DNA from: Dehalococcoidia bacterium | GTDB taxonomy: Bacteria > Chloroflexota > Dehalococcoidia > Lucifugimonadales > UBA3495 | DNA length: 64,000 nt | Assembly: GCA_963667415.1 (NCBI GenBank) | Contig: OY763410.1 | Location: forward strand, 656,657 to 720,656 | Direction of reading: 5' to 3' | Part shown: piece by piece, positions 1,085-39,599 of the stretch | Layout: every line of letters starts with the position of its first letter | How positions within the stretch are numbered: position 1 is the first letter of the stretch | The notes under the pieces: generated by a model | What the model was told of the DNA's origin: nothing | Seen by the model: only the letters and a program-made list of their open reading frames with translations | Database searches by the model: none | Program-made: the position numbers and the translations under genes

Positions 1085-1162
1085 TGGTACCCCGGAGGGG
1101 CTTCGATCCCCTGATCTCCACCTTGAAAGGGTGGCATCCTGACCTGGCTAGACGACCGGGGC
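1085..1162 (-). tRNA. tRNA-Glu (anticodon UUC), CCA encoded
   Basis: The reverse complement reads GCCCCGG TC GTCT AGCCAGGTCA GGAT G CCACC CTTTCAA GGTGG AGATC AGGGG ATCGAAG CCCCT CCGGGGT A CCA. This folds by hand into a cloverleaf with a 7-nt anticodon loop whose anticodon is TTC. The overall sequence is close to bacterial tRNA-Glu. Confidence 0.9.
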
Positions 1163-28046: not shown

Positions 28047-28796
28047 CTAGAAGTACGCCGCTCCGCCGTTGACGTGCAGGGTCTGTCCGGTGACGAAGCC
28101 GCAGTCGTCGGTGGCGAAGAAGACGCAGGCCGCCGCGATATCGTCGACGTGGCCCAGTCTTGCCAGCGGTATGTCCGCCGTGTCGCCCATGTTCTGACCG
28201 GGATACCAGGCCAGGTCGCGGCTGGTGTCGATGCGGCCCGGCGACACCACGTTGATGCGTATGTTGTGCGGAGCGAACTCCGAGGCCAGCCCGCGGGCCA
28301 GGCCCACGATGCCCATCTTGGCCGCCGAGACGTGGGAGCGCTCGGCCGAGCCGTTCCACGCGCCGTCGCCGGTCAGGAACACGATGCGGCCGAATCCGTT
28401 GGCCTGCATCGCGGGCAGCGCGTTGTGGGCGCAGTAGAACGCGCCGTCCAGCACCACGCCGCGCACGTGCTCCCAGTCGGCCAGCGCCAGTTCGGTGAAG
28501 GGCTTGTGAGGACGTATGGCGGCGTTGCTTATCAGCACGTCCACCTGCCCGAAGCGCTCCGCCGCCGCGGCGAACATCCGCGCCACCTGCTCGTGGTCGG
28601 ACACGTCGGCCAGCGCCGCCATGGCGTCCACGCCCAGCGCCCTGACTTCCTCGGCCACGGCTTCGGCCTCATCCTGGTTCGAACGAGCGTTGACCACCAC
28701 GTTGGCGCCCTCGCCCGCCAGCTTCAGGGCAATGGCTCGCCCTATGTTGCGTCCGGACCCGGTGACCAGAGCCGTTTTCCCTTGTAGTCGTGTCAT
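28047..28796 (-). CDS. short-chain dehydrogenase/reductase (SDR) fold protein, atypical active site
   Basis: 249 aa with a TGSGRNIGRA cofactor motif and FabG-like length. The expected S...YxxxK appears to be replaced (LTGDGA...HVSAAK). Confidence 0.8.
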   Translation of the reverse strand: MTRLQGKTALVTGSGRNIGRAIALKLAGEGANVVVNARSNQDEAEAVAEEVRALGVDAMAALADVSDHEQVARMFAAAAERFGQVDVLISNAAIRPHKPFTELALADWEHVRGVVLDGAFYCAHNALPAMQANGFGRIVFLTGDGAWNGSAERSHVSAAKMGIVGLARGLASEFAPHNIRINVVSPGRIDTSRDLAWYPGQNMGDTADIPLARLGHVDDIAAACVFFATDDCGFVTGQTLHVNGGAAYF

Positions 28797-32281: not shown

Positions 32282-33445
32282 ATGAAAGACACTATTGAGG
32301 TATTCTGGTTTTCCGAACAGCCCTACGCCCATGTCAGCGATTCTGACCTGGAGCAGTACGACTCCGGCAGGCTGGGCTTTCCCAACACCTTCTTCGACCC
32401 GGAGAAGGCCCACGTTCTCTATAACCAGTACCATGAGCAGTACCAGCTGGCCGACGAGGTCGGCTTCGACGGCATCATGTCCAACGAGCACCACGCTTCC
32501 TACTGGTGCATGAAGCCCGCCGTCAACCTGGACGCCGCAGTCATCTCCAAGCTGACTAAGAACACGAAAATCGCCATCCTCGGCAACGTCATAGCCGTCA
32601 ACGACCCCATCCGCATGGCCGAGGAAATCGCCATGCTCGACTGCTTCTCCAACGGTCGCATCATCTCCGGCTTCGTGCGCGGCACCGCCGTCGAGAGCCT
32701 GGCCGGCGGCATCATCCCCGCTGAGAACCGCGCCCGCTTCGAAGAGGCCCACGACCTCATCATCAAGTGCTGGACCGAGCCGGGCCCCTTCCGCTACGAG
32801 GGCCAGTACTACCACTACCGGGCCGTCAACCCGTGGGTGCTGCCGGTGCAGGACCCGCACCCGCCCATCTGGTTCCCCGGCCTCTCCAGCGCGGAGAGCG
32901 TCGTTTGGGCCGCCAGCCACCAGCACCCCTATATGAACCTGGGTTCCCTCCTCGACTACACCGAGGGACTGAAGGGCGTGTACATCGACACCGCCAAGGA
33001 AGTCGGGTTCACGCCGGGGCCGGAGCACTTCGGCTACCTGCTCCGCGTGTTCTGCGCCGACACCGATGAGAAGGCCCAGCGCATCGGCGAGACCTTCCTC
33101 TGGACCGAGAACCATCGCAACCGGGGCCCCGTCGAGCACAACGACCCGCCCGGCTACCAGTCCCGCGAGGCGGTGCGCATCCAGCGACAGCTCCCGGGCG
33201 CAGGTGGCTTCGGGCGCCGCATGACCTACCAGGAACTGCAGGATGTCGACAACGTCATCGTCGGCAGCCCCGACACCGTGACCCGAAAGCTGAGCAACAT
33301 CATCGAGCGTCTGAACCCGGGATACCTGCACATCTACGGCAACGAGGGCGACATGGACCACCCCGACGTGCTGCGCTCCATCGAGCTGTTGGGCCGCGAG
33401 GTCATCCCGGCCCTGCACGAAATCCAGCTACAGCCCTACGAGTAG
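32282..33445 (+). CDS. luciferase-like (LLM class) flavin-dependent oxidoreductase
   Basis: 387 aa with an LLM-type TIM-barrel pattern (FDGIMSNEHH...ILGNVIAVNDPIRMAEEIAMLD..SNGRIISGF). SD AGGAG lies upstream. Confidence 0.85.
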   Translation: MKDTIEVFWFSEQPYAHVSDSDLEQYDSGRLGFPNTFFDPEKAHVLYNQYHEQYQLADEVGFDGIMSNEHHASYWCMKPAVNLDAAVISKLTKNTKIAILGNVIAVNDPIRMAEEIAMLDCFSNGRIISGFVRGTAVESLAGGIIPAENRARFEEAHDLIIKCWTEPGPFRYEGQYYHYRAVNPWVLPVQDPHPPIWFPGLSSAESVVWAASHQHPYMNLGSLLDYTEGLKGVYIDTAKEVGFTPGPEHFGYLLRVFCADTDEKAQRIGETFLWTENHRNRGPVEHNDPPGYQSREAVRIQRQLPGAGGFGRRMTYQELQDVDNVIVGSPDTVTRKLSNIIERLNPGYLHIYGNEGDMDHPDVLRSIELLGREVIPALHEIQLQPYE

Positions 33446-35906: not shown

Positions 35907-36941
35907 ATGCTGACAACCGAGCTTACCGACGCCATTGAGTTGATGTTCGAGACCGGCTGGACCGATGGCCTGCCCGTCGTGCCGCCGTCCGAGGAACTGG
36001 TCCGCCGCTTCGTGGCCCATACCGGGCGCGATGGCAACGAGCTCATCGCGGAGCTGCCCCCGCTGGAGGGCCGCGCCACCGTGGAGCGCATCGCCGTCAA
36101 CGCCGTCATGGCCGGTTGCATCCCCGAGCACATGCCCGTCGTCATCACCGCCCTGCAGGCCATGATGGACGAGCGATTCAACCTGCGCGGCGTAATGTGC
36201 TCCACTGGCATCCACACGCCGTTGCTCATCGTCAACGGCCCGGCGGTGCAGAAGCTGGACATCAATGGCGGCTACAACTGCTTCGGTGCAGGCTGGCGGG
36301 CCAACGCCACCATTGGCCGCGCCGTGAAGCTGGCGCTGGTCAACCTGGGCGGCGCAGTCCCTGGCGAGACCAACAAGGCAACCTTCGGCCACCCCGGCGC
36401 CTACACCTACTGCGTTGCAGAGGACGAGGCAGCCAACCCGTGGACGCCGATGCACGTCGAGATGGGCTACGCCGCCGCCGACAGCACCGTCACCGTGTTC
36501 CCCGCCGAGGCGCCACACAACGTCATGTACCACGCCTCCAACTCCCGCGACTTCCTGACCGTGTTGGCCGACACCATGTGCCCCCTGGGCAACGTCCAGA
36601 TGTACGTGATGGGCGACACCTTCGTTGCCATCGGACCGGAGCACACCAAGTTTCTCCACGCCGACGGCTGGAACAAGCGGGACATCCGGCAGTTCCTCTT
36701 CGAGCACGCCCGCAAGCCGGTTCGCATGATAAAGCACGGCGGCCCTCCCCAGGGCGACGCCCGCCGCGGCCACTTCTGGCCCAAATTCATCGACGCCGAG
36801 GACGACGACCAGATGGTCCCGGTGGTGCGTGCGCCCGACCGCATCCACATCTTCGTGGCGGGAGGCGCCGGTGGCCCCCACTCGGTCTACCTGCCCGGCT
36901 GGGGTTCCCGCGCCGTAACCCGCAAGATAGAAGGCATTTAG
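35907..36941 (+). CDS. conserved-looking protein of unknown function (344 aa), first gene of the selenoprotein operon
   Basis: Strong coding signal. The sequence includes MLTTELTDAIELMFETGWTDGLPVVPPSEELV...NAVMAGC...GVMCSTGIHTP. I cannot assign a family. The antisense 378-aa ORF is a GC shadow. Confidence 0.75.
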   Translation: MLTTELTDAIELMFETGWTDGLPVVPPSEELVRRFVAHTGRDGNELIAELPPLEGRATVERIAVNAVMAGCIPEHMPVVITALQAMMDERFNLRGVMCSTGIHTPLLIVNGPAVQKLDINGGYNCFGAGWRANATIGRAVKLALVNLGGAVPGETNKATFGHPGAYTYCVAEDEAANPWTPMHVEMGYAAADSTVTVFPAEAPHNVMYHASNSRDFLTVLADTMCPLGNVQMYVMGDTFVAIGPEHTKFLHADGWNKRDIRQFLFEHARKPVRMIKHGGPPQGDARRGHFWPKFIDAEDDDQMVPVVRAPDRIHIFVAGGAGGPHSVYLPGWGSRAVTRKIEGI

Positions 36942-36979
36942 GGGACATCCATTCCTGCAATAGCAATGGTGAGGAAACT

Positions 36980-37537
36980 ATGACTGCTACCAACGTCGAA
37001 GAACGCCTGAGACAGATGGGCCTGATGAGTCCCGTCGACCCTGACGCCGCCAATCGCTGGCGTCCCGCCCCTAGGCTCGACACCCTCCACGGCAAGGTGG
37101 GCGGTTTTCTGGGCAATCGGAAGGCCAACTCCGCGCTGCTGCTGCACAATGTTCGCGAGCTGCTGGACCGCGATATGGAGCTCGGCGACTCCATGGCCGT
37201 GGACAAGTACGTCTACTCCCGCCCGGCCGCCGACGATATCATTGACGACCTGGCCGTGCGCTGCGACTTCGTGGTGACTGCCATCGCGGATTGAGGGTCC
37301 TGCACCGCGTGCAGTGTGCACGACGCGATGACCCTCGAGAACCGCGGCGTCCCGACGGTGGTGCTGTGCACCGACCCGTTTCTGAACTCGGCCTTCCGCC
37401 ACGCCAACACCTTCGGCCGCCGCGACTTCCGGCCCCTCGGCTTCCCGCATCCGCTGGGTGGCCTGACCCCGGACCAGGTGTCCGTGCGTGCCGGCGAGCT
37501 GGAGCAAGCCGTGATTGATGTGCTGACGACGTATTAG
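36980..37537 (+). CDS. UGSC-motif selenoprotein (predicted Sec at codon 105 encoded by TGA 37292..37294)
   Basis: ATG 36980 is preceded by GGTGAGGAA. The tracked ORFs 36116..37294 and 37316..37537 are in the same frame (offset 1200 nt) and are separated only by TGA. Read-through gives ..DFVVTAIAD-U-GSCTACSVHDAMTLENRGVPTVVLCTDPF.. A SECIS-like hairpin directly follows the TGA. Confidence 0.75.
37295..37334 (+). promoter_or_regulatory. putative bacterial SECIS stem-loop
   Basis: By hand folding, the lower stem is GGGUC(37295-99)/GACCC(37330-34). The upper stem is CGCGUGCA(37306-13)/UGCACG-A-CG(37317-25). The apical loop is GUG (37314-16), which places G and U at +23/+24 from the UGA, as I recall for E. 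coli fdhF. Confidence 0.55.
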
Positions 37538-37618
37538 CAGCCTTCCGTAGCCCTTCTTCCCCCTGTGAAGTCAGGGTCACCGCTTTACCCGTAACGCAAC
37601 TAAAACAGGAGGCCCACG

Positions 37619-38512
37619 ATGGCAACCGTAGGCAGGGGCAAGTACACGTACGAGGTGGTCCCAGACTGGGAGAAGCTGCCCGAAGGCTGGGTGCTGGGCC
37701 AGACCGCCATCGTCACCGACTCACGGGACCGCGTCTACCTCTTCAACCGAGGCGATCACCCGCTGATCGTCCTCGACCGCGACGGCAACTTCCTCACCTC
37801 CTGGGGCGAGGGACAGCTTCCCGACGCCCACGGCATGTACATCGACGGCGAGGAGAACCTGTACATGCCCGTGAAGAACAGCCATGTCGTCCTGAAGTAC
37901 GACCCCAAGGGCAACCTGCTGATGACCATGGGCGAATGGGACGAGCCCTCCGACACTGGTTGGTCGGGCAACTACAGCGACACCGTCGAGCGCGCCGCCG
38001 GGCCCTTCAACCGGCCCAGCGACATCGCCATTCACCCCAGCGGCGACCTGTTCATCTCCGACGGATACGGCAACGCCCGCGTCCACCGTTTCACCAACAG
38101 CGGTCAACTCGTCGAGTCCTGGGGCAAGCCCGGCAAGACCGGACACGGAGAGTTCCACGTTCCCCACGGCGTTTGGGTGCATACCGATGGCCGCGTGTTT
38201 GTGGCCGACCGCGAGAACAACCGCATCCAGATATTCGATGACCGCGGCAACTTCCTCGAGCAGTGGCTGGGCCTCGCCCGCCCCTGCGACATCTACATCG
38301 ACGCCGACGAAGCTATCTTCGTACCCGAGCTTGACGGCTTCATGACCATCCTCGATATGGACGGCGACATCCTCGCCCGCTGGGGCAGCCCCGTCGAGGT
38401 GGAACACGGCCAGGGCGCCCACGCCGTCTGGGTAGATTCCCACGGCGACATCTACGTCAACCAGAACCTCGAGGGCCATCGGCTGGTCAAGTATCGCCAC
38501 GTAGGTGAGTAG
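37619..38512 (+). CDS. NHL-repeat six-bladed beta-propeller, peptidyl-alpha-hydroxyglycine alpha-amidating lyase (PAL)-like
   Basis: 297 aa with repeated blades such as FNRPSDIAIHPSGDLFISDGYGNARVHRF and HGVWVHTDGRVFVADRENNRIQIFD. SD ACAGGAGG lies upstream. Confidence 0.8.
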   Translation: MATVGRGKYTYEVVPDWEKLPEGWVLGQTAIVTDSRDRVYLFNRGDHPLIVLDRDGNFLTSWGEGQLPDAHGMYIDGEENLYMPVKNSHVVLKYDPKGNLLMTMGEWDEPSDTGWSGNYSDTVERAAGPFNRPSDIAIHPSGDLFISDGYGNARVHRFTNSGQLVESWGKPGKTGHGEFHVPHGVWVHTDGRVFVADRENNRIQIFDDRGNFLEQWLGLARPCDIYIDADEAIFVPELDGFMTILDMDGDILARWGSPVEVEHGQGAHAVWVDSHGDIYVNQNLEGHRLVKYRHVGE

Positions 38513-38585
38513 CGTCGCGAGGGCTTACCGGCGGCGGTCGCGGGTAGTCAGTCCCGCCGGGCATCAACACCTAGGAGCGGCTTAA

Positions 38586-39599
38586 ATGCGCATAGCCTAC
38601 CAGGTTGGCCACGTCGTTCACCGCGATTCCATCGACCACCAACAGCAGTGGCAGAACCATCTGGCGCAGTTTCGCGCATCGCGGGACGCCGGGTTCGACA
38701 TCTATTGCTGGGGCCACCACTACCTCATCGACCCCTTCCAGCACTTCCAGCCGTGGCCGGTCCTGGCCCGGCTGGCGGCCGAACCGGGCGACATGACCCT
38801 GGCGACATCGATACTGCTGCTGCCGCTTCTGAACCCCGTCGATGTGGCGGAGCAGGCTGCCACCCTGGACCACATCGCCGAGGGCCGCTTCGTCCTCGGC
38901 ATCGGCCTCGGTTACCGTCCCGAGGAGTTCGAGGCCTTTGGCGTCAGCATGTCGGAGCGGGGAGCCCGTTGCACCGAGGCCATGCACCTCATGCGCCGGC
39001 TGTGGAGCGAGGACGAGGTAACTCATCACGGGAAATTCTTCAACGTCACCGGAGCGAAGCCGACCGCGCGGCCCTACCAGAAGCCATATCCCAAGGTCTG
39101 GCAGGCGGCTATGAGCGACCCGGCCATCCGGCGCGTGGCGCGCGAGGGCGAGATTCTGTACGTCGGCCCGGCCCAGTCCAACGAGTCCGTTCGCCACCAG
39201 ATAGACCTCTACCATCGCACCCTCGAAGAGTCCGGACACGATGACCCCGGGGAAATGGTCATCGTACGCGAGTTTTACTGTGCCCCCACCCGCGAGGAGG
39301 CCTTGACCAGAGCCCAGGCAAACTTCGCCACAAAGTACGAGGTCTATGCCCAGCATGGCCTGCACGGCACCGACGGCGAACTCACCCGCAAAGTGACCGG
39401 CGACATGGAGTCGCTCATGGACGACACCTTCCTGGTCGGCAGCCCCGAGGAATGTATCGAGCAGATTGCCGCCTACCACGAAATGGGCTTCACCGACGTC
39501 GCCATTCGCCTGTTCTATCCGGAAATGTCCCAGGGCGAGGTGCTGGAACATATCGATCTCGTAGGACAAGAGGTGATTCCCGCCCTGCACGCGCTCTGA
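38586..39599 (+). CDS. luciferase-like (LLM class) flavin/F420-dependent oxidoreductase
   Basis: 337 aa with LLLPLLNPVDVAEQAATLDHIAEGRFVLGIGLGYRPEEFEAFG, typical of LLM enzymes. Confidence 0.88.
   Translation: MRIAYQVGHVVHRDSIDHQQQWQNHLAQFRASRDAGFDIYCWGHHYLIDPFQHFQPWPVLARLAAEPGDMTLATSILLLPLLNPVDVAEQAATLDHIAEGRFVLGIGLGYRPEEFEAFGVSMSERGARCTEAMHLMRRLWSEDEVTHHGKFFNVTGAKPTARPYQKPYPKVWQAAMSDPAIRRVAREGEILYVGPAQSNESVRHQIDLYHRTLEESGHDDPGEMVIVREFYCAPTREEALTRAQANFATKYEVYAQHGLHGTDGELTRKVTGDMESLMDDTFLVGSPEECIEQIAAYHEMGFTDVAIRLFYPEMSQGEVLEHIDLVGQEVIPALHAL

What the first reader, a model, noticed from the sequence alone, without database searches (positions are those of the whole stretch)
37295..37334. SECIS-like stem-loop directly after the TGA, with apical G/U at +23/+24
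My hand folding of UGA GGGUCCUGCACCGCGUGCAGUGUGCACGACGCGAUGACCC gives an imperfect 40-nt hairpin. The lower stem is 37295-99/37330-34 and the upper stem is 37306-13/37317-25 with a bulged A37323. The apical loop is GUG at 37314-16. Counting the U of UGA as +1, the loop G and U fall at +23 and +24. As I recall, the E. coli fdhF SECIS presents its essential G23/U24 to SelB at the same positions, and the upper stem GCAG-loop-UGCAC resembles fdhF GCAGGUCUGCAC. A competing 6-bp hairpin (CUGCAC-CGC-GUGCAG, 37300..37314) also exists.
Basis: partly seen in the sequence, partly recalled or inferred. Interest (0 to 1): 0.7.

Follow-up and report, generated by a model that had tools for sequence, protein, structure and literature searches.

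The report
Selenocysteine insertion hairpin, UGSC gene
The hairpin just after the in-frame TGA at 37292 is a genuine, strongly conserved bacterial selenocysteine-insertion (SECIS) element in a gene of the already described UGSC selenoprotein family, so it is a correct but ordinary find.

Summary
Observation confirmed and interpretation supported. Gene 36980-37537 (+) is a UGSC-family protein (Pfam PF24696, 6e-44) with an in-frame TGA at 37292-94.

RNAfold gives a 6-bp stem, 37308-13 paired with 37317-22. The apical loop is GUG at 37314-16, which puts G and U at +23/+24 from the U of UGA. The five inner pairs have probability 0.97-0.98 (closing A-U pair 0.64), and the competing hairpin about 0.01.

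In all 168 TGA-bearing homologous loci the hairpin sits at the same ungapped distance. G23 and U24 are invariant in the 52 distinct core sequences compared.

In the orthologues, synonymous sites of codons +3..+10 are almost frozen. This includes AGT, the rarest Ser codon in the window.

Three of the six stem pairs show compensatory double changes, some of which change the encoded amino acid. RNAalifold recovers the same helix on its own. Four Cys (TGC/TGT) homologues lack the hairpin.

All structural criteria of the published bacterial SECIS model are met. The E. coli fdhF bulged U17 is absent, the lower stem is not conserved outside the window's clade, and no Rfam model matches.

No sel genes or tRNA-Sec lie in the window, so Sec decoding is inferred rather than shown.

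The UGSC selenoprotein family has been known since at least 2007-2008, so novelty is low.

Side finding: the adjacent 344-aa ORF, which matches no Pfam family, is a conserved partner. In one locus it is fused to the UGSC gene.

The parts
36980..37537 (+). UGSC-family selenoprotein gene: 185 codons, with an in-frame TGA at codon 105 and the motif D-U-G-S-C.
   Evidence: Translation. Pfam PF24696 UGSC at 6e-44, covering residues 17-183 across the TGA. NCBIfam NF041046 'UGSC family (seleno)protein' scores 121.5 bits against a cutoff of 125. tblastn matches span residues 1-185 in the 80 genome loci.
37292..37294 (+). UGA read as selenocysteine (inferred).
   Evidence: TGA is at this codon in 80/80 genome loci, 76/80 metagenome loci and 12/12 further divergent loci. 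The other 4 metagenome loci have TGC or TGT. Full-length CGSC homologues exist.
37308..37322 (+). SECIS core hairpin. The 5' arm is 37308-13 (CGUGCA), the apical loop is 37314-16 (GUG) and the 3' arm is 37317-22 (UGCACG), i.e. +17..+31.
   Evidence: MFE and ensemble structures. RNAalifold consensus on 52 distinct cores. 98.4% of cells are paired, 3 of 6 pairs show double changes, and 0 of 500 shuffles reach the observed values.
37314..37315 (+). Loop G23 and U24, the presumed SelB contact (GpU).
   Evidence: Invariant in 116 distinct 57-nt sequences and in 52 distinct cores. They are the 2nd and 3rd bases of the Ser codon AGT, which makes up 3.8% of Ser codons in window ORFs but 78/78 here.
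37301..37327 (+). Middle helix enclosing the core: U10-G36, G11-C35, C12-G34 (37301-03 with 37325-27). The alternative is C15-G34 and G16-C33 with A32 bulged.
   Evidence: p = 0.56-0.75 for the first pairing and 0.2-0.29 for the alternative. The extension pairs are only 64% paired across the family.
37291..37338 (+). Lower helix of the roughly 48-nt hairpin (37291-99 with 37330-38). It includes the UGA itself.
   Evidence: p of about 1.0 in this sequence. Across the family only 71-77% of cells are paired and there is no covariation, so it is probably accessory.
36968..36975 (+). Shine-Dalgarno-like GGUGAGGA, 4 nt before the ATG at 36980.
   Evidence: Read directly from the sequence. Not otherwise tested.
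35907..36941 (+). Conserved 344-aa partner ORF of unknown function, probably the 'Unknown_1' domain of the GOS paper.
   Evidence: Directly upstream of the UGSC gene in 79/80 orthologous loci. Adjacent in divergent loci too. Fused in frame to UGSC in L164. No Pfam, NCBIfam or PDB relative.

Best explanation
The element is a bacterial SECIS. It is a hairpin inside the coding sequence whose 6-bp upper stem (+17..+31) displays a GpU (G23, U24) in a 3-nt loop, or a 5-nt loop if the A22-U26 pair opens.

Inferred mechanism, by analogy with E. coli and Moorella: the C-terminal domain of the elongation factor SelB, loaded with GTP and Sec-tRNA(Sec), binds this loop and stem while the ribosome approaches. 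The fixed spacing then places Sec-tRNA(Sec) at the A-site UGA (37292-94). Release factor 2 is outcompeted and selenocysteine is inserted, giving a 185-residue UGSC (UxxC) redox protein.

Shown here:
- the structure;
- its exact and invariant register relative to UGA;
- RNA-level selection (frozen synonymous sites and compensatory changes);
- its absence from Cys homologues.

Inferred, not shown: SelB binding, actual Sec insertion, and the presence of selA/selB/selC/selD in this genome.

The lower helix that contains the UGA is strong in this sequence. It is not conserved across the family and is probably accessory.
For: Structure: MFE and centroid agree. Upper-stem pairs have p = 0.97-0.98, and G23/U24 are unpaired with p >= 0.99.

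Gene identity: Pfam UGSC at 6e-44 across the TGA. The family is listed as a selenoprotein family in PMC2398784, PMC9312934 and PMC13188914.

TGA conservation: 168 of 172 homologous loci carry TGA at this codon and 4 carry TGC/TGT. Most of the 150 listed representatives (211 clusters at 50% identity with E <= 0.001) end exactly at this position. All 30 that I aligned do so.

Translation continues past the TGA. Downstream codons have aa conservation near 1.0 with synonymous entropy of about 1-1.9 bits.

RNA-level selection: codons +3..+10 have synonymous entropy 0-0.29, against a gene mean of 0.96. No window is as low in 200000 permutations. The invariant AGT and GCG codons are non-preferred.

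Covariation over 52 distinct cores:
- Pair 19-29 changes from U-A to C-G, to A-U and to U-G.
- Pair 18-30 changes from G-C to A-U (both changes synonymous) and to G-U.
- Pair 21-27 changes from C-G to G-C and to U-G.
- 98.4% of cells are paired and 0 of 500 shuffles reach the observed values.
- Several of these changes alter the peptide (C->R with H->R; C->S with H->L; C->W with H->R) while keeping the pair.

Control: the Cys homologues have CC at +23/24 and do not form the helix. Their peptides vary freely at U+6..U+9.

The published bSECIS criteria are all met.

TGA is an ordinary stop for 10 of 37 confident ORFs in the window, so the genetic code is not reassigned.
Against: - No selA, selB, selD or tRNA-Sec was found in the 64-kb window or in the flanks of the orthologous loci L001-L080, so Sec competence of this organism is not demonstrated here.
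- No Rfam SECIS model matches, even at E <= 10.
- The E. coli determinant bulged U17 is absent.
- The core is so conserved that covariation rests on about 6-7 independent events.
- The isolated 43-nt fold is not significantly more stable than shuffles.
- NCBIfam NF041046 scores 121.5, just under its 125-bit cutoff, with C substituted for U.
Confidence: 0.9

Rival explanations
1. The hairpin is a by-product of protein-level conservation of the peptide GSCTACSVHD. The palindrome UGCA...UGCA arises simply from two Cys codons and has no RNA function.
For: The peptide downstream of U is nearly invariant in the 80 orthologues. The same repeated UGCA also creates the competing hairpin at 37300-14.
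Against: Synonymous sites are frozen on non-preferred codons: AGT 78/78 and GCG 78/78. No comparable run appears in 200000 permutations. When amino acids at U+6 or U+9 do change, both change together so that the base pair survives. Cys homologues vary freely at these residues and have no hairpin.
Confidence: 0.03
2. The TGA is a real stop, or the gene is a pseudogene or assembly error. In that case 36980-37294 and a downstream ORF (GTG 37316-37537) are separate genes, and the hairpin acts in termination, reinitiation or mRNA stability.
For: Public gene callers annotate exactly this: two ORFs of about 101-104 and 58-78 aa, both hitting PF24696. No sel genes are in the window.
Against: The two parts stay in the same frame with zero spacing in all 168 TGA-bearing loci, and no indel separates the UGA from the loop. 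One Pfam domain match spans both parts. Homologues with TGC/TGT at the same codon are single ORFs. No U-tract follows the hairpin. The candidate GTG start lies in the hairpin loop and has no Shine-Dalgarno sequence.
Confidence: 0.02
3. The hairpin stimulates read-through of UGA by a standard tRNA (Trp, Cys or Arg near-cognate) rather than SelB-dependent Sec insertion.
For: The Sec machinery could not be checked for this genome. Downstream RNA structures can stimulate stop-codon read-through in other systems (general knowledge).
Against: The position aligns with the redox Cys of CGSC homologues. The loop carries the GpU at the E. coli register. All structural criteria of the bSECIS model are met. 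The family is curated as a selenoprotein family. SelA and SelB are reported in most sponge-symbiont bins of a study that includes SAR202 (PMC5649159).
Confidence: 0.04

Closest known systems
Bacterial SECIS consensus (bSECIS model of Zhang and Gladyshev, as restated in PMC13188914)
   Same: It lies in the coding region directly 3' of an in-frame UGA. It has a small apical loop beginning G-U, a 6-bp upper stem, 19 nt between the UGA and the loop, and an MFE well below -7.5 kcal/mol.
   Different: Nothing structural. [quoted passage not shown]
E. coli fdhF SECIS
   Same: G and U are at +23/+24. The 3' arm UGCAC occupies +26..+30 in both. The 5' arm UGCA is also shared. The UGA lies in the lower helix, and the overall hairpin is about 40 nt. 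Some family members read UGCAGUCUGCAC, one G short of the fdhF sequence UGCAGGUCUGCAC.
   Different: The loop is 3 nt (GUG) rather than 4 nt (GGUC). There is no bulged U17: C17 pairs with G31, and only the L161-type variants have a bulged A17. The host is a Chloroflexota/Dehalococcoidia bacterium, and its SelB was not examined.
UGSC-containing selenoprotein family (Pfam PF24696, NCBIfam NF041046; GOS selenoproteome, PMC2398784)
   Same: Same domain and same U-G-S-C motif. The family is overwhelmingly Sec rather than Cys: 255 Sec against 21 Cys in GOS, and 168 against 4 here.
   Different: This copy comes from a SAR202/Dehalococcoidia-type genome. In public records its orthologues are annotated only as truncated hypothetical proteins. 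With C in place of U it scores 121.5 bits against NF041046, just under the 125-bit cutoff.
Glycine reductase selenoprotein B (GrdB, TIGR01917)
   Same: Weak local similarity around the Sec region: UGSC residues 91-161 against GrdB residues 333-397, E = 0.0024. GOS lists the same UxxC motif type for the UGSC family and for proline reductase PrdB.
   Different: The score is far below the cutoff (16.9 against 602 bits). The protein is much smaller and its gene neighbourhood is different. It is not a member.

Membership tests
Bacterial SECIS (bSECIS consensus model) | Stem-loop in the coding region immediately 3' of an in-frame UGA | tested here: met
   The hairpin spans 37291-37338 and the UGA is at 37292-94, in frame in a UGSC ORF.
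Bacterial SECIS (bSECIS consensus model) | Apical loop of 3-9 nt on an upper stem of 4-16 bp | tested here: met
   The loop is 3 nt (GUG) and the stem is 6 bp. RNAalifold gives the same result on 52 cores.
Bacterial SECIS (bSECIS consensus model) | G in one of the first two loop positions, usually followed by G or U | tested here: met
   The loop starts G23-U24. Both bases are invariant in all Sec forms compared.
Bacterial SECIS (bSECIS consensus model) | 16-37 nt between the UGA and the apical loop | tested here: met
   19 nt (+4..+22). The distance is identical, with no indel, in all aligned Sec loci.
Bacterial SECIS (bSECIS consensus model) | MFE <= -7.5 kcal/mol | tested here: met
   -17.1 kcal/mol for the 43-nt element and -30.5 for 61 nt. 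The 15-nt core alone is -6.3.
Bacterial SECIS (bSECIS consensus model) | Binds SelB and directs Sec insertion at the UGA | not testable with these tools
   Needs a reporter assay, a binding assay or a 75Se/MS experiment.
Bacterial SECIS (bSECIS consensus model) | Host genome encodes selA, selB, selD and tRNA-Sec | tested here: inconclusive
   None was found in the 64-kb window or in the flanks of L001-L080. The rest of the genome is not available.
E. coli fdhF-type SECIS | G23 and U24 exposed in the apical loop | tested here: met
   G at 37314 (+23) and U at 37315 (+24) are unpaired with p >= 0.99. The fdhF loop GGUC lies at +22..+25. The key positions are named in PMC8659212.
E. coli fdhF-type SECIS | Bulged U17 on the 5' side of the upper stem | tested here: not met
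   Position +17 is C and pairs with G31 (CG in 50 of 52 cores). A bulge at position 17 (an A) appears only in the L161/L168/L172 variants.
E. coli fdhF-type SECIS | Minimal 17-nt stem-loop at +15..+31, 11 nt after the UGA | tested here: inconclusive
   The conserved core is +17..+31. The extension to +15/+16 (pairing with +33/+34, A32 bulged) has p = 0.2-0.29 here and is only 64% paired across the family.
UGSC family (seleno)protein | Match to the family profile above its curated threshold | tested here: met
   Pfam PF24696 scores 150.6 bits against a gathering score of 25. The stricter NCBIfam equivalog NF041046 scores 121.5 against 125 bits, with C substituted for U.
UGSC family (seleno)protein | U(TGA)-G-S-C motif at the position of the CGSC motif in Cys homologues | tested here: met
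   The motif is D-U-G-S-C at codons 104-108. Cys homologues have CGSC at the aligned position.
Rfam SECIS families | Covariance-model match at or near the gathering score | tested here: not met
   No SECIS family hit at the gathering threshold over the whole window, nor at E <= 10 over 37100-37500. I take this to mean that Rfam has no model of this bacterial type.

The most novel reading that the evidence does not exclude
Two readings go beyond 'one more SECIS'.

First, the UGSC SECIS may be a family-wide, almost sequence-invariant RNA motif (CGUGCA-GUN-UGCACG at +17..+31, in the same register as E. coli fdhF). This motif would itself dictate the 'conserved' peptide C-S-[V/L/M/I]-H downstream of the UGSC motif. 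That peptide would then be an RNA footprint and not a functional protein motif.

Second, the selenoprotein may work as one half of a widespread two-component enzyme, fused in some loci, together with the uncharacterised 344-aa family. That family has at least 7895 homologues, no Pfam family and no solved fold. Its chemistry is unknown, and it appears abundant in SAR202/Dehalococcoidia.
Probability: 0.5. Interest if true: 0.45.

Novelty: new member of a known kind. Interest (0 to 1): 0.3.

Why it matters
The finding corrects a systematic annotation error. In public MAG records this gene is split into two 'hypothetical' ORFs. Selenium use by SAR202/Dehalococcoidia-type bacteria is therefore under-counted.

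The alignment and covariance model built here (A5, R1) could seed an Rfam family for this bacterial SECIS type, which Rfam currently misses.

The same G23/U24 register as fdhF suggests the element might be read by E. coli-like SelB. That would make heterologous expression of this selenoprotein testable.

The tight link, and occasional fusion, with a very large uncharacterised 344-aa family gives a concrete handle on the unknown function of an abundant aquatic selenoprotein family.

Tried and rejected
- Rfam scans found nothing relevant, either at the gathering threshold over the whole window or at E <= 10 over 37100-37500.

- A six-frame scan for other in-frame TGAs was too noisy in this 62.5% GC window. 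After filtering on GC3 and hairpin geometry only 37292 and 28195 remained. The site at 28195 is antisense to an SDR gene and was rejected.

- The covariance-model search of the window gave a second hit at 32824-32859(-), 12.6 bits, reading TGCGGGTCCTGCACC. For a moment it looked like a CGSC paralogue. It is antisense to a luciferase-like monooxygenase gene, so it is a chance match.

- The model found no extra SECIS in the flanks of the 80 orthologous loci.

- The 30-sequence divergent alignment was too diverse for a metagenome pattern scan, so I used a 10-sequence subset.

- tblastn with E. coli SelA, SelB and SelD against the window and loci found nothing.

- Sequence searches of the PDB found no relatives of either protein.

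- A Foldseek search with the AF2 model of the 344-aa partner gave no convincing match. The best was class-I fumarate hydratase, E about 1e-3, TM 0.25.

Full report
THE OBSERVATION

The window reads GAU UGA GGG UCC UGC ACC GCG UGC AGU GUG CAC GAC GCG AUG ACC CUC from 37289. RNAfold of 37285-37345 gives identical MFE and centroid structures. The energy is -30.5 kcal/mol, z = -4.58, and 0 of 200 dinucleotide shuffles fold as well.

The structure has three parts:
- A 6-bp upper stem, CGUGCA/UGCACG (37308-13 with 37317-22).
- A GUG loop at 37314-16.
- A 9-bp lower helix (37291-99 with 37330-38) that contains the UGA.

In the ensemble the upper-stem pairs have p = 0.97-0.98 (closing pair A22-U26, 0.64). 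G23 and U24 are unpaired with p >= 0.99. The competing hairpin at 37300-14 has p of about 0.01, although alone it is as stable as the core (-6.5 against -6.3 kcal/mol).

The MFE instead pairs U10-G36, G11-C35 and C12-G34.

Folding energy alone is weak evidence. The 43-nt element has z = -1.61. A stem of 6 bp or more with a GU loop exactly at +23/24 occurs at 5e-4 of window positions, so 0.84 are expected over all 1632 TGA triplets.

THE GENE

The ORF 36980-37537 has 185 codons and a single in-frame TGA at codon 105, in the motif D-U-G-S-C. With C in place of U it matches Pfam PF24696 'UGSC family' at 6e-44, covering residues 17-183 across the TGA. It scores 121.5 bits against NCBIfam NF041046 'UGSC family (seleno)protein', just under the 125-bit cutoff.

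The UGSC-containing protein is a described selenoprotein family. The GOS metagenomes contained 255 Sec forms and 21 Cys forms (PMC2398784). The family is also listed in recent reviews.

TGA is an ordinary stop for 10 of 37 confident ORFs in the window, so the genetic code is not reassigned.

HOMOLOGUES

A scan of GTDB species genomes returned 80 loci, all from Dehalococcoidia, SAR202 or Chloroflexota MAGs. They are 68-96% identical over residues 1-185, and all 80 carry TGA at the same codon.

A search of 1.84 billion cluster representatives found 211 clusters at E <= 0.001. Of the 150 listed, most are 95-110 aa long and end exactly where the query's residue 104 aligns, i.e. they are truncated at the stop. 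A few full-length forms have CGSC.

A metagenome scan with a more distant subfamily gave 80 further loci: 76 with TGA and 4 with TGC or TGT. Twelve still more divergent loci all have TGA.

Downstream of the TGA the protein is under purifying selection. Amino-acid conservation is near 1.0 while synonymous entropy is 1-1.9 bits. The region is therefore translated.

RNA-LEVEL SELECTION

Across 79 distinct orthologous sequences the mean synonymous entropy of degenerate codons is 0.96 bits. Codons +3..+10 (TGC ACC GCG TGC AGT GTG CAC GAC) have only 0-0.29 bits, with a mean of 0.10. This is the lowest sliding window in the stretch analysed, codons -66..+79. In 200000 permutations no 8-codon window was as low.

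The frozen codons are not the preferred ones. AGT is 3.8% of Ser codons in the window's ORFs but 78/78 at codon +7. GCG is 32% of Ala codons but 78/78 at codon +5. G23 and U24 are the second and third bases of that AGT.

COVARIATION

All Sec loci align without a single gap from the UGA to beyond the hairpin. They collapse to 52 distinct core sequences of the form CGUGCA-GUN-UGCACG. The third loop base is free (G, A, U or C), while G23 and U24 are invariant.

The stem pairs vary as follows:
- Pair 19-29 is U-A in 46 cores, C-G in 2 (peptide C->R with H->R), A-U in 2 (C->S with H->L), U-G in 1 and mismatched in 1.
- Pair 18-30 is G-C in 49, A-U in 1 (both changes synonymous) and G-U in 2.
- Pair 21-27 is C-G in 50, G-C in 1 and U-G in 1.
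- Pair 20-28 never varies.

Overall 98.4% of cells in the 6-bp helix are paired, and 3 of the 6 pairs show double changes. None of 500 shuffles reaches any of the five measures, and slid controls fall to 12-58% paired. RNAalifold, given no structure, returns exactly this helix and loop.

By contrast the lower helix is only 71-77% paired and the extension pairs 64%, with little or no covariation.

THE CYS CONTROL

The four TGC/TGT loci have CC at +23/24 and do not form the helix. Full-length Cys-form proteins vary freely at positions U+6..U+9. Sec forms keep C-S-[V/L/M/I]-H there, or replacements that preserve the base pairs. That peptide therefore looks imposed by the RNA.

COMPARISON WITH KNOWN ELEMENTS

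The published bacterial SECIS model requires four things: a 3-9 nt loop on a 4-16 bp stem, a G in the first two loop positions (usually followed by G or U), 16-37 nt between the UGA and the loop, and an MFE of -7.5 kcal/mol or lower (PMC13188914). All four are met.

I recalled the E. coli fdhF SECIS sequence from memory and checked it. It matches fdhF at 100% in the listed records and at 99% or more in 5413 of 5420 matching records. It folds with a GGUC loop at +22..+25. PMC8659212 states that U17, G23 and U24 are its conserved positions and that U17 and G23 bind SelB.

The present element shares G23/U24 and the 3' arm UGCAC at +26..+30. It has a 3-nt loop and no bulged U17. It therefore works like the fdhF element but is not a strict copy of it. 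Rfam has no matching model.

That SelB's C-terminal winged-helix domain recognises a loop GpU is established knowledge from the E. coli and Moorella systems. I cite that point from memory.

WHAT IS NOT SHOWN

No tRNA-Sec, selA, selB or selD lies in the window or in the flanks of L001-L080, and I could not reach the rest of the genome. SelB binding and Sec insertion are inferred. The only indirect support is a report that SelA and SelB co-occur in most sponge-symbiont bins, in a study that includes SAR202 (PMC5649159).

OTHER CANDIDATES IN THE WINDOW

A geometry and GC3 filter left one other site, at 28195. It is antisense to an SDR gene. The covariance model built from the 52 cores finds 37292-37333 at 63.8 bits. 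The next hit scores 12.6 bits and is antisense to a monooxygenase gene. The model finds exactly one hit in each orthologous locus.

SIDE FINDING

The 344-aa ORF at 35907-36941 has no Pfam, NCBIfam or PDB relative. It nevertheless has at least 7895 homologues. It lies directly upstream of the UGSC gene in 79 of 80 orthologous loci and is adjacent in divergent loci as well.

In L164 the UGSC reading frame runs on into a homologue of this ORF. The result is a 536-codon fusion, with 43% identity and E = 4e-87 to the window ORF. This matches the 'UGSC/Unknown_1' fusion mentioned in the GOS paper.

An AlphaFold model of the 344-aa protein (pLDDT 81, pTM 0.85) has no convincing PDB fold match.

VERDICT

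The element is a new instance of a known kind, in a selenoprotein family that is already described. Interest is therefore modest (0.3).

Noticed in passing
window 35907-36941 (+); L164:1501-3111: A 344-aa ORF directly upstream of the UGSC gene has no Pfam, NCBIfam or PDB relative but at least 7895 homologues. It is adjacent to UGSC genes in 79/80 orthologous loci and in most divergent loci. In L164 it is fused in frame to the UGSC gene (536 codons; 43% identity, 4e-87). The AF2 model (pLDDT 81) has no convincing PDB fold match. It is probably the 'Unknown_1' partner named in the GOS paper.
   Followed up: partly
window 35907-39599 (+): A four-gene order is conserved in 75-79 of the 80 Dehalococcoidia loci: the 344-aa ORF, the UGSC selenoprotein, an NHL-repeat beta-propeller (37619-38512) and a luciferase-like/F420-type oxidoreductase (38586-39599). 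This suggests one functional unit.
   Followed up: partly
window 37310-37321 (codons U+6..U+9, C-S-V-H): The peptide C-S-[V/L/M/I]-H after UGSC is conserved only in Sec forms. Cys forms vary freely there. Where Sec forms do change it, both residues change so that the base pair is kept. The 'motif' therefore looks like a footprint of the SECIS RNA rather than a protein requirement.
   Followed up: partly
window 37289-37291: The Asp codon before the UGA is GAT in 79/79 distinct orthologues, although GAT is only 14% of Asp codons in the window. In the more distant subfamily GAC is also common (U 93, C 23 of 116). The U could pair with A47 in the lower helix or be a context effect on UGA decoding.
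   Followed up: partly
public records of loci L001-L174: Gene callers split this gene everywhere into an N-terminal ORF of about 100 aa and a C-terminal ORF of 42-78 aa. Both hit PF24696 and are named 'hypothetical protein'. This is a systematic mis-annotation of a selenoprotein.
   Followed up: yes
whole window (37 confident ORFs): Stop codon usage is TAG 19, TGA 10 and TAA 8. In my experience TGA is usually the commonest stop in a genome of 62.5% GC, so its low share here is unexpected.
   Followed up: no
window 37250-37462 (UGSC residues 91-161): There is weak similarity to glycine reductase selenoprotein B (TIGR01917 positions 333-397, E = 0.0024) and to sarcosine reductase GrdF, around the Sec region. 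This may reflect a distant relationship to the GrdB/PrdB selenoproteins.
   Followed up: no
window 32824-32859 (-): TGCGGGTCCTGCACC resembles the start of the UGSC SECIS region with Cys in place of Sec (CM hit, 12.6 bits). It lies antisense to a luciferase-like monooxygenase gene at 32282-33445 (+), so it is a chance match.
   Followed up: yes
window 28195 (+): A TGA followed by a 5-bp hairpin with a GU-containing loop, in an open high-GC3 frame. It is antisense to the short-chain dehydrogenase gene at 28047-28796 (-), so it is spurious.
   Followed up: yes
L161, L162, L168, L172 (+17 of the SECIS): One UGSC subfamily has A at +17, which RNAfold leaves bulged on the 5' side of the stem (GUC-A-GUGCA). 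This is the position of the bulged U17 in E. coli fdhF.
   Followed up: no
window 1085-1162 (-): tRNA-Glu (UUC) is the only tRNA in the window. There is no tRNA-Sec.
   Followed up: yes
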